Source of the DNA: Anaerolineaceae bacterium
GTDB taxonomy: Bacteria; Chloroflexota; Anaerolineae; Anaerolineales; Anaerolineaceae
Direction: 5' to 3'
NCBI GenBank assembly: GCA_016841445.1
Contig: JAENZD010000003.1
Span: forward strand, 31,212-95,211
DNA: 64,000 nucleotides
Positions 30,853-34,634 of this stretch are shown here, piece after piece. The notes beneath the pieces are model-generated. The model did no database searches. It saw only the letters and a list, made by a program, of their open reading frames with translations, and was not told where the DNA came from. A program made the position numbers and the translations under genes. Positions within the stretch are counted from its first letter, which is position 1. Every line of letters starts with the position of its first letter.

Positions 30853-31200
30853 ATGTCAGATCGACTGGCAGAATTTGAAAATTACCGAAAAAAGATGAAT
30901 GAACGTATTGACGCTATCGATCACCTGGGGATCAAACGCTTCTTCAACCTGGATACTAAGGCTTATGATGATGGGGCATTAAGTGCAAAAACAAAGGAAT
31001 TATTAGGCCTGGTTGCTTCGATGGTCCTGCGCTGTAATGACTGCATTGACTACCATATCCTGCAGTGTGTGGATGCGGGGTGGACCGATGAAGAGCTTCA
31101 CGAAGCGTTTAATGTTGGTTTGGTCGTCGGGGGAAGTATCGTGATCCCACATCTGCGCCATGCCGTAGAATCACTTGATCTCTACCGTTCACGCAATTAA
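30853..31200 (+). CDS. Carboxymuconolactone decarboxylase/AhpD-like protein
   Basis: KTKELLGL...LRCNDCIDYH (CxxC...H); GAAGGAG SD. Confidence 0.88.
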   Translation: MSDRLAEFENYRKKMNERIDAIDHLGIKRFFNLDTKAYDDGALSAKTKELLGLVASMVLRCNDCIDYHILQCVDAGWTDEELHEAFNVGLVVGGSIVIPHLRHAVESLDLYRSRN

Positions 31201-31275: not shown

Positions 31276-32037
31276 TTATATGCTGAAATCTGTTCCTATC
31301 CAGTAACCTTCCTCATCGGTATGGATGTGGGGTTCTTCACGGACCTGTAATTTTTCCTCAAGGTAATCCAACCTGGCCAGGACTTGCTGGAGGGATTGAC
31401 CGATGGTGTCAGGCAGCCTGTCATGGTGAAGGTCTGGTGCATCCGATAATCGCTTATGACTGCGCTTAACAACCTGGCCGGGGATCCCGACTACTACAGA
31501 ATCAGGCGGGACTGTTTTTACGACCACAGCGTTTGCCCCAACACGGCTGCCCTCACCAATTTCGATTGCGCCAAGTATCTTTGCCCCTGCGCCGACCACG
31601 ACCTTATCTCCCAGGGTTGGGTGGCGCTTCCCTTTTTCAAGGCTGACACCCCCCAATGTAACATCGTGATAAAGGGTGACATCATTGCCTATTTCGGATG
31701 TTTCACCAATCACAACCCCCATTCCATGATCAATGAAGAATCTCCGTCCGATGACGGCACCTGGATGAATTTCAATCCCTGTCAACCATCGAACAATTTG
31801 GGAAATCCAGCGCGCCAGGAAATAGACTTTTTTAATCCAAAGCCAGTGAGTGATTCGATAACCCCAAATGGCATGCAGTCCGGAATAATTAAAGAGAACC
31901 TCAATCCAATTCCTGGCAGCAGGGTCACGCTGAAGTGCGCAGCGGATATCCTCAATGATCATTCGTAACAGTCCAATCTCTTTTGTGCCTTCATAGCTAT
32001 ATGAAAGTGGTGTTTCGATAATTGTTGTGTTTTGCAT
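31276..32037 (-). CDS. cysE: Serine O-acetyltransferase
   Basis: [32 protein letters not shown] and hexapeptide repeats. Confidence 0.96.
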
Positions 32038-32060: not shown

Positions 32061-32993
32061 TCATTCACGGATGTCGTCAAACATCGGTGTGCTGAGATAG
32101 CGTTCAGCAAAGGATGGGATTATGACCACGATCAATTTGCCTTTATTTTCAGACCGTTTTGACACTTGAAGGGCAGCCCATGTGGCAGCACCCGATGAAA
32201 TCCCAACCGGAATACCTTCTTCGGTAGCCAGCAGGCGGGCGGTTTGGTATGAGTCGTCTCCCGTCACCTGGATGATTTCATCATAGATGGAGGTGTTGAG
32301 GATAGGTGGGATGAAACCGGCACCAATGCCCATGATCGGATGTGGCCCTTTTTCACCACCTGAAAGGACTGGTGAGGCTTCAGGCTCGACTGCGACAACT
32401 TTAATATTTGAATTAAGTGCTTTTAATGCTTCTCCTGTCCCTGTGATGGTACCGCCGGTGCCGATACCGGCAACAAGCATATCCACCTTGCCGTCCGTAT
32501 CTCGCCAGATTTCTTTTGCTGTTGTTTGCCGATGGATTTCAGGGTTGGCAGGATTGTCAAATTGGTTTGGCATGTAATAGCGCGGATCAGAATCTACCAA
32601 CGCTTTGGCCTTTGCGATCGCACCTCCCATACCTTCTTCACCCGGGGTTAAAATTATCTCGGCTCCCAGGACTTTCATCATCATCTTGCGTTCGTGGCTC
32701 ACGCCTTCGGGCATGGTCAGGATGCATTTATATCCCCTGGCAGCGGCGACAAAGGCCAGGGCAACGCCAGTATTTCCACTGGTGGGCTCAACGATGACAC
32801 TGTTGGGGGTTAGCAACCCCTGATCTTCCGCTGCATTGATCATTGCCACACCAATGCGGTCTTTAACGCTGTGAGCCGGATTAAAATACTCCAGCTTCAG
32901 CGCGATATCGGCGTAGCCGTCATTGTTTAACCGACTTAACCGGACCAGCGGTGTATTTCCGATAAGTTCTGTTATATTGTTATAGATTTTCAT
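32061..32993 (-). CDS. cysK: Cysteine synthase A
   Basis: SVKDRIG PLP lysine, [13 protein letters not shown] and SFAERYLST motifs. Confidence 0.97.
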
Positions 32994-33030
32994 TCTCGAT
33001 CTCCAAAATTATTCATTTATATTTATTCTT

Positions 33031-33164
33031 AAAAACAAAACCAGCCTGATCTTTGAAATTAGCAGCGGGGCTGAGTCCGCAAATGATCTTTAATCATTGC
33101 GGAAGTAACCGCCGCCCAGATCGACTGGTTGAAAGAATTTCCAGTTAGATTGTCCGAGCGGTGG
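33031..33164 (-). promoter_or_regulatory. Structured attenuator-like leader RNA upstream of cysK
   Basis: AACCAGTCGATCT pairs with AGATCAGGCTGGTT then TTGTTTTT; inner GGCGGCGG/CCGCTGCT and CCGCAATGAT/ATCATTTGCGG; competing ACTGG/CCAGT stem. Confidence 0.65.
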
Positions 33165-33203
33165 CTAGCGGCCCCGCCTCAGACATAAGCACTTAAATAT
33201 CAT
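33165..33203 (-). CDS. Putative Cys leader peptide MIFKCLCLRRGR
   Basis: GGAG 5 nt before ATG 33203; TGC and TGT codons at positions 5 and 7; TAG at 33167-33165. Confidence 0.7.
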   Translation of the reverse strand: MIFKCLCLRRGR

Positions 33204-33238
33204 TGAATCTCCAAGGTAATATGACAATAATTATCATA

Positions 33239-33266
33239 ATTATATTGAAAAAACAGATAATGTCAA
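33239..33266 (-). promoter_or_regulatory. Sigma70-type promoter for leader-cysK-cysE
   Basis: TTGACA (33266-33261), 16 nt, TATAAT (33244-33239). Confidence 0.8.
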
Positions 33267-33515
33267 GAGGGTGTGGAAGAAAATGGGAATAGTGAATGGT
33301 GCGTGGTGAGTAGAAGGTAATCAAGCAATTAGGAGATCAGGCAAACAGGAAATTAGAAATGATCAGATCAAAAACTATGACCTATCAGTTATCGGGTAAA
33401 AGCGAATACTTTTCGGCTTTAAACTATCCGCACCAGCTGCACCCTACAAGGTGCCACGGTTCACCATGCACTAGATCAATAGATTATAATAATCTCCATT
33501 AACATTAATGGAGGC

Positions 33516-34634
33516 ATGATGAACGAGCGTTTAGAAAAACTTACAGGTTTAACGGGAAAAATTGGGCTGGAAGGGGCTGCCATCAATCCTGGTCCGACAC
33601 TCATTTATCTAACAGGTTTGAGCTTTCATTTAATGGAGCGCCCGACACTTTTGCTTGTGACCAAAGCAGGGGGTGGTGTAATAATCCTTCCCCGACTAGA
33701 AAAAGGAAAACTTGAGGGGAAAGATGACCTGTTCCAGTCCTTTACGTATGACGATGACCCGGCGACATGGCATGGTGCGTTTGAAAAGGCGGTTGAAACA
33801 CTAAACATCAGTAATGGAAAGATCGGGGTTGAACCGACCAGGCTCAGATTTCTGGAATTATCTTATCTCAAAGCGGTAATGCCCACCCTTGATTTCGTTG
33901 ATGCCAGCGAGGTTTTCTCAACCCTCCGGATGAACAAAGATGAAGAAGAAATTCAAAAAATGAAGAAGGCAGCAAGCATAGCTCAAAACGCCATGCTTGC
34001 GACATTAAGAAAAATCCGGAGCGGGATGACAGAAAAGGAAGTCGCTAACGAACTCCTTATCCAACTATTACGAGCAGGGGGGGATCCTGAAATGCCATTT
34101 GCGCCCATTGTTGCAATCGGGGATCACAGCGCCAACCCCCACGCTGTTCCTACTGATCGAAAGCTGCAGCGCGGAGATCTGCTTTTGATGGATTGGGGTG
34201 CCAGCTATGAAGGTTATTTCTCTGATATTACCCGCACGTTCACATTTGGTGATGTCGATCCGGAATTAAAGGAGATTAGCCATGTTGTTCTGGAAGCAAA
34301 CACGGCAGCAAGAAATGCGGGCAAGCCAGGAATTGCTGCAGGCACGATTGACCGTGCTGCACGGTCTGTTATCAGCAATGCCGGCTTCGGGGAATACTTT
34401 ATCCACCGCACAGGGCACGGATTGGGAATGGAAGCACATGAGGCACCTTATATCTTCGCAGAAAATGACCTGATCTTATCTCCCGGGGCTGTTTTCACGA
34501 TTGAACCAGGGATCTACCTCCCGGGAAAAGGCGGCGTCAGGATCGAAGACGATGTGGTGATAACTGAAGACGGTTTGGAATCCCTGACTGACATGCCGCG
34601 CCAGGTGCTGCCTCTCGAAAGTTTTATGGATTAA
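33516..34634 (+). CDS. Xaa-Pro peptidase (M24 family)
   Basis: ANPH, DWGA, SDITRT, HRTGHGLG, EPGIY and GVRIEDD motifs. Confidence 0.94.
   Translation: MMNERLEKLTGLTGKIGLEGAAINPGPTLIYLTGLSFHLMERPTLLLVTKAGGGVIILPRLEKGKLEGKDDLFQSFTYDDDPATWHGAFEKAVETLNISNGKIGVEPTRLRFLELSYLKAVMPTLDFVDASEVFSTLRMNKDEEEIQKMKKAASIAQNAMLATLRKIRSGMTEKEVANELLIQLLRAGGDPEMPFAPIVAIGDHSANPHAVPTDRKLQRGDLLLMDWGASYEGYFSDITRTFTFGDVDPELKEISHVVLEANTAARNAGKPGIAAGTIDRAARSVISNAGFGEYFIHRTGHGLGMEAHEAPYIFAENDLILSPGAVFTIEPGIYLPGKGGVRIEDDVVITEDGLESLTDMPRQVLPLESFMD

What the first reader, a model, noticed from the sequence alone, without database searches (positions are those of the whole stretch)
33031..33266. Cys-codon leader peptide and alternative hairpins: candidate cysteine attenuator for cysK-cysE
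Seen on the minus strand, in order: TTGACA-16-TATAAT; GGAG-5 nt-ATG; the ORF MIFKCLCLRRGR with TGC and TGT; a long stem AACCAGTCGATCT/AGATCAGGCTGGTT ending in TTGTTTTT. The leader's GCGGGGC (33177-33171) is complementary to GCCCCGC (33071-33065) in the 3' arm, and ACTGG/CCAGT competes for the 5' arm, so the folds are mutually exclusive. Known: ribosome-stalling attenuation controls amino-acid operons; Bacillus cysE uses a T-box, which is absent here. Inference: Cys-tRNA-sensing attenuation. I do not recall this being described for Anaerolineae, and the 60-aa ORF track misses it.
Basis: partly seen in the sequence, partly recalled or inferred. Interest (0 to 1): 0.8.

Follow-up and report, generated by a model that had tools for sequence, protein, structure and literature searches.

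The report
Cysteine-sensing leader-peptide attenuator before cysK
A 12-codon mini-gene with two cysteine codons, followed by RNA hairpins that cannot form together, sits in front of the cysteine-synthesis genes cysK and cysE; it very likely switches them on when cysteine runs short, and it represents a large, apparently undescribed family of such switches in Anaerolineae.

Summary
On the minus strand the window carries, in order, a perfect sigma-70-type promoter, GGAG-5-ATG, the small ORF MIFKCLCLRRGR, a structured leader ending in a U tract, and then cysK and cysE.

I collected 135 distinct relatives of this leader from Anaerolineae genomes and metagenomes.
- **The small ORF is kept as an ORF.** ATG triplets just upstream of the first Cys codon are in frame 134 times, against 3 and 4 in the other frames. 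All three stop codons are used at one fixed position. The first Cys codon is present in 104 of 105 leaders found without requiring it, while its neighbours vary.
- **Three helices that exclude each other each show compensatory changes.** They are a hairpin made of the ORF's 3' end, a long antiterminator, and a nested double terminator.
- **The downstream genes are almost all cysteine or sulfur genes:** cysK, a cysM-like paralog, cystathionine beta-synthase, a rhodanese, and DUF4395-thioredoxin-cysK.

Rfam 15 has no match, and I found no paper describing this in Chloroflexota. The mechanism is a known kind: Cys-codon leader ORFs have been tested in mycobacteria and predicted upstream of cysS in Rhodobacterales. 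I file it as a well-supported new member of a known kind. There is no experimental evidence for it.

The parts
33239..33266 (-). Sigma-70-type promoter: TTGACA (33266-33261), 16 nt, TATAAT (33244-33239)
   Evidence: 12/12 consensus match. A TTGAC-N16-19-TAnWWT motif lies upstream of 117 of 126 related leaders.
33209..33212 (-). Shine-Dalgarno GGAG, 5 nt before the leader ATG
   Evidence: A core of at least 4 nt of GGAG, GAGG or AGGA precedes the chosen start in 86 of 135 leaders.
33165..33203 (-). Leader ORF MIFKCLCLRRGR plus stop. Cys codons are TGC 33191-33189 and TGT 33185-33183; the stop TAG is at 33167-33165.
   Evidence: In-frame ATG 134 against 3 and 4. Cys1 present in 104 of 105 unbiased leaders. 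Stop at the same columns in 33 of 35 leaders, using UAG, UAA and UGA.
33152..33184 (-). Hairpin P1 (anti-antiterminator): GUCUGAGGCGG in the ORF pairs with CCGCUCGGAC after the stop
   Evidence: Present in the MFE structure. Core helix 94.9% paired across 91 leaders, and pair 31-55 covaries as GC, AU, CG and GU.
33152..33177 (-). Block A, the 5' strand of the antiterminator: GCGGGGCCGC-UAG-CCACCGCUCGGAC
   Evidence: Covaries with block B. Cognate duplexes are more stable than non-cognate ones. The window's own pairing is shown.
33124..33145 (-). Variable hairpin P2: ACUGG (33145-33141) pairs with CCAGU (33128-33124). Here it overlaps the outer-stem 5' arm.
   Evidence: The hairpin sits at this position with different sequences in relatives, read by eye. 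It is not in the consensus structure.
33099..33125 (-). Block B: GUCGAUCUGGGCGGCGGUUACUUCCGC. It is the 3' strand of the antiterminator and also the 5' strand of both terminator stems.
   Evidence: Alignment columns 155-161 pair with block A and, alternatively, with the terminator 3' arm.
33076..33103 (-). Apical hairpin UCCGCAAUGAU...AUCAUUUGCGGA inside the terminator
33062..33071 (-). Inner terminator 3' arm. CCCCGCUGC (33070-33062) pairs with GCGGCGG (33115-33109).
   Evidence: Helix 5 is 91% paired and all 6 pairs covary. In this window it is followed by AUUUCAAAG, a weak U tract.
33031..33052 (-). Outer terminator 3' arm AGAUCAGGCUGGUU (pairs with 33130-33118) and the U tract UUUUGUUUUU
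   Evidence: Outer stem 97.8% paired, 8 of 8 pairs with compensatory changes. U tract read.
32061..32993 (-). cysK, cysteine synthase A, with its own GGAG at 33004-33001
   Evidence: TIGR01139, 460.8 bits against a cut-off of 351.
31276..32037 (-). cysE, serine O-acetyltransferase, 23 nt after cysK. A terminator-like site follows at 31229-31215.
   Evidence: TIGR01172, 252.4 bits against a cut-off of 210.7. Terminator-like site.

Best explanation
This is a classical ribosome-mediated (leader-peptide) transcription attenuator that reads the supply of charged tRNA-Cys and controls the cysK-cysE operon.

Transcription starts just after the TATAAT box. A ribosome then translates the 12-codon leader. 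The leader's last five sense codons, its stop codon and the next ~15 nt form block A. Block A can do one of two things.
- It can fold on itself as hairpin P1.
- It can pair along its whole length with block B downstream, which is the antiterminator.

Block B is also the 5' strand of a nested double terminator: an inner stem and an outer stem, each followed by U's.

**Cysteine plentiful.** The ribosome runs to the stop codon and covers block A while RNA polymerase makes B and the terminator's 3' strands. When the ribosome leaves, block A snaps into P1. B therefore pairs with the 3' strands and transcription ends at about 33031.

**Cys-tRNA scarce.** The ribosome stalls with UGC or UGU in its A site. 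This covers the 5' arm of P1 but leaves the rest of block A free. Block A pairs with B, the terminator cannot form, and polymerase reads into cysK.

**Shown here:** the ORF, the Cys codons, the three competing helices and the gene context. **Inferred:** the stalling, the timing and the cysteine response.
For: 1. **The ORF is under selection as an ORF.** In 135 distinct leaders, ATG triplets in the 24 nt before Cys1 fall in frame 134 times, against 3 and 4 in the other frames, while the N-terminal residues vary freely. In the 35 aligned leaders from the window and the CysK-neighbourhood loci (L001-L061; all but the window found without any DNA pattern), 33 have a stop at the same columns, as UAG 17, UAA 14 and UGA 2.
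2. **The Cys codons are conserved.** The metagenome pattern began at Cys2. Even so, the codon two positions upstream is TGC or TGT in 104 of 105 matches, while the codon between the two Cys codons takes 13 forms. Some leaders carry a third Cys codon in the variable part, for example L017, L026 and L145.
3. **The off-state structure covaries.** P1, outer stem and inner terminator are 90.4% paired. 22 pairs show double changes and 0 of 500 shuffles reach the observed values. The outer stem has 8 of 8 covarying pairs and the inner stem 6 of 6.
4. **The antiterminator covaries.** It is 85.5% paired, with 11 pairs and 67 cells showing double changes, 0 of 500 shuffles, and at most 54% paired when partners are slid. 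Pair 42-174 is CG 17, UA 16, UG 10; pair 43-173 is CG 16, UA 11. Neither pair belongs to any off-state helix. Each leader's own block A-block B duplex averages -34.1 kcal/mol, against -29.0 when the blocks come from different leaders. The own-leader duplex is the more stable in 120 of 133 cases, p = 4e-16.
5. **The geometry fits.** I folded transcripts cut just before the terminator's 3' arm. The antiterminator is the best fold in 122 of 123 leaders with a ribosome mask at Cys1, in 117 of 123 with a mask at Cys2, and in only 8 of 123 with a mask at the stop codon.
6. **The regulon fits.** Downstream genes are cysK 61, a cysM-like paralog 48, cystathionine beta-synthase 5, rhodanese 5, and DUF4395 (followed by thioredoxin and cysK) 8.
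7. **The leaders have their own promoters.** A promoter-like motif precedes 117 of 126 leaders.
Against: - There is no experimental or transcriptomic evidence. The RNA runs that share sequence with the window gave only sparse contigs from related organisms.
- There are only two Cys codons and they are not adjacent.
- Codon choice is almost fixed: TGC 102 against TGT 2 at Cys1, and TGT at Cys2. Some nucleotide-level constraint therefore acts there as well.
- At equilibrium the full-length leader keeps the terminator whatever the ribosome mask (88-100% of terminator pairs kept). The switch must therefore be kinetic.
- A naked truncated transcript already prefers the antiterminator over P1 (120 of 123). 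P1's role as a trap rests on folding order, which I cannot compute.
- In the Brevefilum subgroup one antiterminator pair (columns 50-163) is an A-C mismatch.
- Alignment A2 was fitted to the off-state structure, which flatters.
Confidence: 0.75

Rival explanations
1. The small ORF is translated and its translation drives the terminator/antiterminator choice, but the signal is not specifically Cys-tRNA. It could be general translation capacity, or an arrest caused by the conserved nascent peptide C-x-C-[LM]-x-R-G.
For: The peptide tail C[LM]xRG is highly conserved. Codon choice at the two Cys positions is nearly fixed. There are only two Cys codons and they are not adjacent.
Against: The conserved tail coincides with nucleotides used in two alternative helices, which is enough to explain its conservation. 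Cys1 lies outside the helices and is still near-invariant. The downstream genes are specifically cysteine or sulfur genes.
Confidence: 0.1
2. A ligand-binding riboswitch or a protein-binding leader RNA (for O-acetylserine, sulfide, cysteine or similar), in which the small ORF is incidental.
For: The leader is strongly structured (z = -4.5). It has very conserved G/C-rich boxes and no Rfam match, so an unknown aptamer cannot be formally excluded.
Against: In-frame ATG 134 against 3 and 4, Shine-Dalgarno sequences, a fixed stop position using all three stop codons, and a conserved Cys codon outside any helix all point to translation. Essentially every conserved nucleotide is accounted for by one of the three competing helices, which leaves no conserved unpaired pocket.
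Confidence: 0.06
3. The element acts after transcription (mRNA stability or cysK translation) or is a plain constitutive leader. Cysteine control would instead come from a transcription factor bound at the conserved palindrome next to the -10 box.
For: A conserved palindromic element (GATAnAAATTATC and variants) lies just after the -10 box in many leaders. One relative (L035) has what looks like a regulator gene instead of the leader.
Against: U tracts follow both covarying terminator stems: a median of 6 U in 9 nt after each. The cysK Shine-Dalgarno lies about 27 nt downstream of the terminator's U tract and is not sequestered. A transcription-factor site would be an extra layer of control and does not explain the covarying antiterminator.
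Confidence: 0.06

Closest known systems
Classical leader-peptide transcription attenuators of enterobacterial amino-acid operons (trp, his, leu, thr, phe, ilv); from established knowledge
   Same: A short translated leader holds codons for the regulated amino acid. The 1:2, 2:3 and 3:4 pairings compete. An intrinsic terminator precedes the first structural gene. The stop codon is placed so that a terminating ribosome covers segment 2.
   Different: The amino acid is cysteine and the phylum is Chloroflexota. There are only two regulatory codons, spaced C-x-C. The antiterminator is a very long helix of about 18-25 bp that runs through the stop codon. The terminator is nested and double, with inner and outer stems each followed by U's.
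uORFC-8-2 motif upstream of cysS in Rhodobacterales (Brewer et al. 2021, PMC8632094)
   Same: A predicted ribosome-mediated transcription attenuator with a conserved uORF, two Cys codons and a terminator stem with a U run.
   Different: In uORFC-8-2 the Cys codons are tandem, at about positions 14-15. It has two stems, occurs only before cysS, and is found in alphaproteobacteria. The leader here is 11-15 codons with C-x-C, has a different architecture, precedes biosynthetic genes (cysK, cysM-like, CBS, rhodanese), and shows no sequence relation (no Rfam hit).
Polycysteine leaderless sORF attenuators of mycobacteria (Canestrari et al. 2020, 10.1101/834739); Cys leader peptides predicted in Actinobacteria (Seliverstov et al. 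2005, PMC1262725)
   Same: Ribosome stalling at Cys codons in a leader ORF de-represses cysteine-metabolism operons. Several loci in one genome share the device, which those authors call a 'ribulon'.
   Different: The one mycobacterial locus analysed in detail is leaderless, has two or more consecutive Cys codons and acts on translation by unmasking a Shine-Dalgarno sequence. No conserved terminators were found there. The window's leader is led by a Shine-Dalgarno sequence and built on a terminator. A few relatives (L034, L038, L040, L061, L113) do look leaderless.
T-box leaders (for example the Bacillus cysE-cysS operon; from established knowledge)
   Same: They sense tRNA-Cys charging and control a terminator in a cysteine-gene leader.
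   Different: A T-box binds uncharged tRNA directly and needs no translation. No T-box match was found here.

Membership tests
Leader-peptide (ribosome-mediated) transcription attenuator | A short ORF with translation signals in the 5' leader | tested here: met
   GGAG-5-ATG in the window. In-frame ATG 134 against 3 and 4 across 135 leaders. Conserved stop position using all three stop codons.
Leader-peptide (ribosome-mediated) transcription attenuator | Regulatory codons for the amino acid made by the downstream genes | tested here: met
   Two Cys codons. Cys1 is present in 104 of 105 leaders found without requiring it. Downstream genes are cysK, cysE, cysM-like, CBS and rhodanese.
Leader-peptide (ribosome-mediated) transcription attenuator | An intrinsic terminator between the leader ORF and the first structural gene | tested here: met
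   Covarying outer stem (8 of 8 pairs) and inner stem (6 of 6 pairs), each followed by U-rich tracts. In the window the tract is UUUUGUUUUU at 33040-33031.
Leader-peptide (ribosome-mediated) transcription attenuator | An antiterminator that excludes the terminator and whose availability depends on ribosome position | tested here: met
   Covariation. Cognate against non-cognate duplexes. Masked folding gives 122/123 and 117/123 against 8/123. Only the structural part is shown; the dependence on the ribosome is modelled.
Leader-peptide (ribosome-mediated) transcription attenuator | Read-through rises when the cognate aminoacyl-tRNA is limiting | not testable with these tools
   This needs Term-seq, reporters or in vitro coupled assays. 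The RNA runs were uninformative.
T-box riboswitch | Stem I with specifier loop, the conserved T-box sequence and an antiterminator bulge pairing with the tRNA 3' end (Rfam RF00230) | tested here: not met
   cmscan of 32900-33550 with all Rfam 15 models at E <= 10 returned only two chance snoRNA hits.
Known metabolite riboswitches of sulfur metabolism (SAM classes and others in Rfam 15) | A match to the family covariance model | tested here: not met
   No match at E <= 10.
Mycobacterial polycysteine leaderless sORF attenuators | A leaderless start, two or more consecutive Cys codons, and control by Shine-Dalgarno sequestration | tested here: not met
   The window has a Shine-Dalgarno sequence and a 5' UTR. 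The Cys codons are separated by one codon. The cysK Shine-Dalgarno is not in the structure and a terminator is present. The system is analogous but is not a member of this family.
uORFC-8-2 (cysS leader, Rhodobacterales) | A uORF with tandem Cys codons at about positions 14-15, two stems, upstream of cysS | tested here: not met
   The leader here is 11-15 codons with C-x-C at positions 4-8 and has a different helix layout and gene context. I compared against the description in PMC8632094. That family's alignment was not available to me.

The most novel reading that the evidence does not exclude
Anaerolineae may run a phylum-wide 'cysteine ribulon'. One leader family, copied in front of at least five kinds of cysteine or sulfur genes, sometimes twice in one locus, would read Cys-tRNA charging through a C-x-C mini-ORF. 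It would act through a single long antiterminator that disables a nested pair of terminators. If so, it would be the first terminator-based cysteine attenuator for biosynthetic genes and the first classical attenuator family described in Chloroflexota.
Probability: 0.6. Interest if true: 0.6.

Novelty: new member of a known kind. Interest (0 to 1): 0.55.

Why it matters
Cysteine biosynthesis control in Chloroflexota is essentially uncharted. Classical leader-peptide attenuation has been worked out mainly in Proteobacteria and a few Gram-positive groups.

This family offers three things.
- A compact, comparatively well-defined regulon marker for cysteine and sulfur genes in uncultured Anaerolineae. 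It helps annotate genes such as DUF4395 and the cysM-like paralog.
- A natural example of one antiterminator controlling two nested terminators.
- A simple system for testing how few regulatory codons, here two that are not adjacent, are enough for amino-acid sensing.

It is also a concrete case of a functional 12-codon ORF that gene callers miss.

Tried and rejected
- **Rfam.** A scan of the leader with permissive thresholds gave only two chance snoRNA hits. This rules out a T-box and the known riboswitches.
- **Expression evidence.** DNA runs hold the locus, but the only RNA runs share 6-9% of its words. Laying them down gave scattered contigs from relatives, nothing over the promoter, the leader ORF or the terminator's U tract, and only one 34-nt piece inside the leader that runs on into unrelated sequence. 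This is uninformative.
- **Equilibrium folding of the full leader with ribosome masks.** The terminator wins in nearly all cases. I rejected this as a test because attenuators are kinetic, and used transcripts truncated before the terminator's 3' arm instead.
- **RNAalifold on the 18 closest leaders.** They are too similar to show much covariation, with 5 compensatory pairs. I therefore widened the set with a metagenome pattern scan and a covariance model.
- **The covariance-model alignment.** The model was built from the Brevefilum group only, so it aligns block B poorly or not at all in about a third of distant members. Those cells count as gaps or mismatches, which makes conservative.
It is a variable hairpin that overlaps the terminator arm in only some members. 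I rejected it as the conserved switch.
- **Literature.** I searched for a prior description in Chloroflexi or Anaerolineae and found none in the held library. From memory only, Russian-language surveys of attenuation across phyla by the Lyubetsky/Seliverstov group (around 2010) exist. I could not check them.

Full report
**What is in the window**

Read on the minus strand, the region holds the following, in order.
- TTGACA (33266-33261), 16 nt, TATAAT (33244-33239). This is the only 12/12 sigma-70-type match in the 3 kb scanned.
- GGAG (33212-33209), 5 nt, ATG (33203-33201).
- A 12-codon ORF, MIFKCLCLRRGR, with TGC at 33191-33189, TGT at 33185-33183 and the TAG stop at 33167-33165.
- About 135 nt of structured RNA ending in UUUUGUUUUU (33040-33031).
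- A second GGAG (33004-33001) and cysK (32993-32061).
- cysE, 23 nt further on (32037-31276).

Both enzymes score above NCBIfam's curated cut-offs for TIGR01139 and TIGR01172. The leader folds much better than shuffled versions of itself (z = -4.5). No Rfam 15 family matches it, including T-box and the SAM classes, even at E <= 10.

**Relatives**

A scan of one genome per species with the CysK protein returned 80 loci.
- All 16 closest loci have the same leader upstream of cysK. They are Brevefilum and Anaerolineaceae MAGs with 78-83% CysK identity.
- Many more distant Anaerolineae and Anaerolineales loci have recognisable versions.
- The non-Chloroflexota loci whose upstream regions I read (L021, L023, L031, L043, L044) do not have it, and a motif scan of all 80 loci found none in the others.

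I then ran a metagenome scan with a pattern that starts at the second Cys codon. In total I collected 135 distinct leaders. A covariance model built from the closest 18 finds exactly one copy in the 64-kb window (E = 7e-34). It finds 91 copies in the 100 sources searched.

**The small ORF is real**

- Across the 135 leaders, ATG triplets in the 24 nt before the first Cys codon are in frame 134 times, against 3 and 4 in the other two frames. The residues between Met and Cys vary freely, and a Shine-Dalgarno core precedes most starts.
- The peptide consensus is M-x(2-6)-C-x-C-[LM]-x-R-G-x-stop.
- In the 35 aligned leaders from the window and the CysK-neighbourhood loci (L001-L061; apart from the window, found independently of any DNA pattern), 33 have a stop at the same alignment columns: UAG 17, UAA 14, UGA 2. 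Of the other two, L033's in-frame UAA is displaced by an alignment shift and L017 has a longer ORF.
- The metagenome pattern did not include the first Cys codon. Yet 104 of 105 matches have TGC or TGT there, while the codon between the two Cys codons takes 13 different forms.
- Several leaders add a third Cys codon in the variable part.

**Three competing helices**

Block A runs from the last five sense codons through the stop to about 15 nt beyond it.
- *P1.* Block A folds on itself. In the window GUCUGAGGCGG pairs with CCGCUCGGAC (33184-33152).
- *The terminator.* It lies downstream and is nested. The inner stem pairs GCGGCGG (33115-33109) with CCCCGCUGC (33070-33062) and encloses an apical hairpin (33103-33076). 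The outer stem pairs 33130-33118 with 33052-33039. Across the family each stem is followed by a U-rich tract, with a median of 6 U in 9 nt for both. In this window only the outer tract is good.
- *The antiterminator.* Block B (33125-33099) is the 5' strand of the terminator and is also complementary to the whole of block A. In the window UAGCCACCGCUCGGA (33167-33153) pairs with UCUGGGCGGCGGUUA (33120-33106). The small hairpin ACUGG/CCAGU stacks inside it, so the 5' arms of both terminator stems are sequestered.

**Covariation**

All counts are on the model-based alignment of 91 leaders.
- *Off state (P1 plus both terminator stems).* 90.4% of cells are paired, 22 pairs show changes on both sides, and no shuffle in 500 reaches the observed values. 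Compensatory changes occur in 8 of 8 outer-stem pairs and 6 of 6 inner-stem pairs. That alignment was fitted to this structure, which favours it.
- *Antiterminator.* The model knew nothing of this structure. It is 85.5% paired, with 11 pairs and 67 cells showing double changes, 0 of 500 shuffles, and at most 54% paired when partners are slid by one to three columns.
- *The most telling pairs.* Pair 42-174 (CG 17, UA 16, UG 10) and pair 43-173 (CG 16, UA 11) lie in the P1 loop and in the unpaired stretch before the CCCCGC box. Only the A:B helix explains them.
- *An alignment-free test.* Each leader's own block A-block B duplex averages -34.1 kcal/mol, against -29.0 when block A is paired with other leaders' block B. 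The own-leader duplex is the more stable in 120 of 133 cases, p = 4e-16.

Examples are GCGGGAUUUGU with ACAAAUCCCGC, and GCGGGUUUC with GAAGCCCGC. In this window the box at the usual position has become UUCCGC, which still pairs through two G-U pairs.

**Geometry and mechanism**

I folded transcripts cut just before the terminator's 3' arm, with about 28 nt masked to stand for a ribosome.

| Ribosome position (codon in the A site) | Leaders in which the antiterminator is the best fold |
|---|---|
| Cys1 | 122 of 123 |
| Cys2 | 117 of 123 |
| Stop codon | 8 of 123 |

At equilibrium the full-length leader keeps the terminator whatever the mask. A naked truncated transcript already prefers the antiterminator (120 of 123). 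The switch must therefore be kinetic, as in the trp attenuator.

The proposed sequence is this. A ribosome that reaches the stop codon hides block A while B and the 3' arms are made, and P1 then traps block A, so transcription terminates. A ribosome stalled at a Cys codon hides only P1's 5' arm, so block A pairs with B and polymerase reads through. The stalling and its dependence on Cys-tRNA are inferred and have not been shown.

**Regulon**

| Gene after the leader | Number of leaders |
|---|---|
| cysK | 61 |
| cysM-like paralog (best NCBIfam hit TIGR01138, below its cut-off) | 48 |
| Cystathionine beta-synthase (above its cut-off) | 5 |
| Rhodanese / 3-mercaptopyruvate-sulfurtransferase-like | 5 |
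| DUF4395 membrane protein, followed by a thioredoxin-like gene (identified by eye) and cysK | 8 |

A few further cases could not be classified. Several loci carry two copies, one before cysK and one before the cysM-like gene. A promoter-like motif precedes 117 of 126 leaders. This gene set is what a cysteine-responsive device would be expected to control.

**Comparison with what is known**

The logic is that of classical leader-peptide attenuation. Cys-specific versions already exist.
- Leader peptides with runs of Cys codons were predicted in Actinobacteria, without terminators (PMC1262725).
- Polycysteine leaderless sORFs were shown experimentally in Mycobacterium smegmatis to act on translation (10.1101/834739).
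- The uORFC-8-2 motif, with two tandem Cys codons and a terminator, was predicted upstream of cysS in Rhodobacterales (PMC8632094).

The family here differs from all three in sequence, phylum, codon arrangement (C-x-C), target genes and architecture (an antiterminator running through the stop codon, and nested double terminators). I found no description of it in Rfam 15 or in the held literature. It is therefore a new member of a known kind, and an unusually clean one. It is not a new mechanism.

**Limits**

- No expression data bear on it.
- The metagenome set was selected by a pattern that fixes Cys2, the GCGGGG box, the stop position and the CCRCCGC box. Statements about those features therefore rest on the 35 aligned leaders from the window and the CysK-neighbourhood loci.
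- The shuffle controls ignore phylogeny.
- The literature library is incomplete.

Noticed in passing
window 33223-33235 (-), and the same position in L001-L016, L022, L024-L030 and others: A conserved palindromic element lies directly after the -10 box, at or near the predicted transcript start. It reads GATAATTATTGTC here, GATAnAAATTATC in close relatives, TAGAAYAAATTCTAG before the cysM-like genes, and TTACGAAATTTGTCATAA in others. It could be a 5'-terminal RNA hairpin or the operator of a transcription factor, which would add a second layer of control.
   Followed up: partly
L034:~1880, L038:~1855, L040:~1875, L061:~1795, L113: In the subgroup that precedes DUF4395-thioredoxin-cysK, the leader ATG lies about 7 nt after the -10 box and has no Shine-Dalgarno sequence. 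These leaders look leaderless, like the mycobacterial Cys sORFs.
   Followed up: no
L024:4926, L025:5075, L026:4891, L027:4806, L028:4711, L110:5121, L163:5040, L194: A second copy of the leader sits in the same locus, just downstream of cysK and in front of a cysM-like paralog. Its block A-block B flanks differ from those of the first copy, so each copy is internally matched.
   Followed up: partly
L035:2600-2910: This Anaerolineae cysK lacks the leader. It is instead preceded by an ORF that looks, by eye only, like an Rrf2/CymR-type regulator. It may be an alternative mode of cysteine control in the same class.
   Followed up: no
L039 and L051, about 100-200 nt upstream of cysK: These carry a different conserved leader (CCTCATCGCTTGCGGCT.CGCGC...GATGAGG followed by T's) in place of the Cys-codon leader. 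It may be another cis-regulatory RNA.
   Followed up: no
L019:2781 and L020:2777: A variant has three Cys codons (C-C-I-C) and an open frame that runs on for about 40 more codons with no nearby ATG. The GGGCGGG box is kept, but the architecture seems different.
   Followed up: no
window 30853-31200 (+) and 33516-34634 (+): The operon's neighbours are a CMD-family (carboxymuconolactone decarboxylase-like) protein, convergent with cysE, and an M24 Xaa-Pro peptidase, divergent from the leader promoter. No other copy of the leader exists in the 64-kb window.
   Followed up: yes
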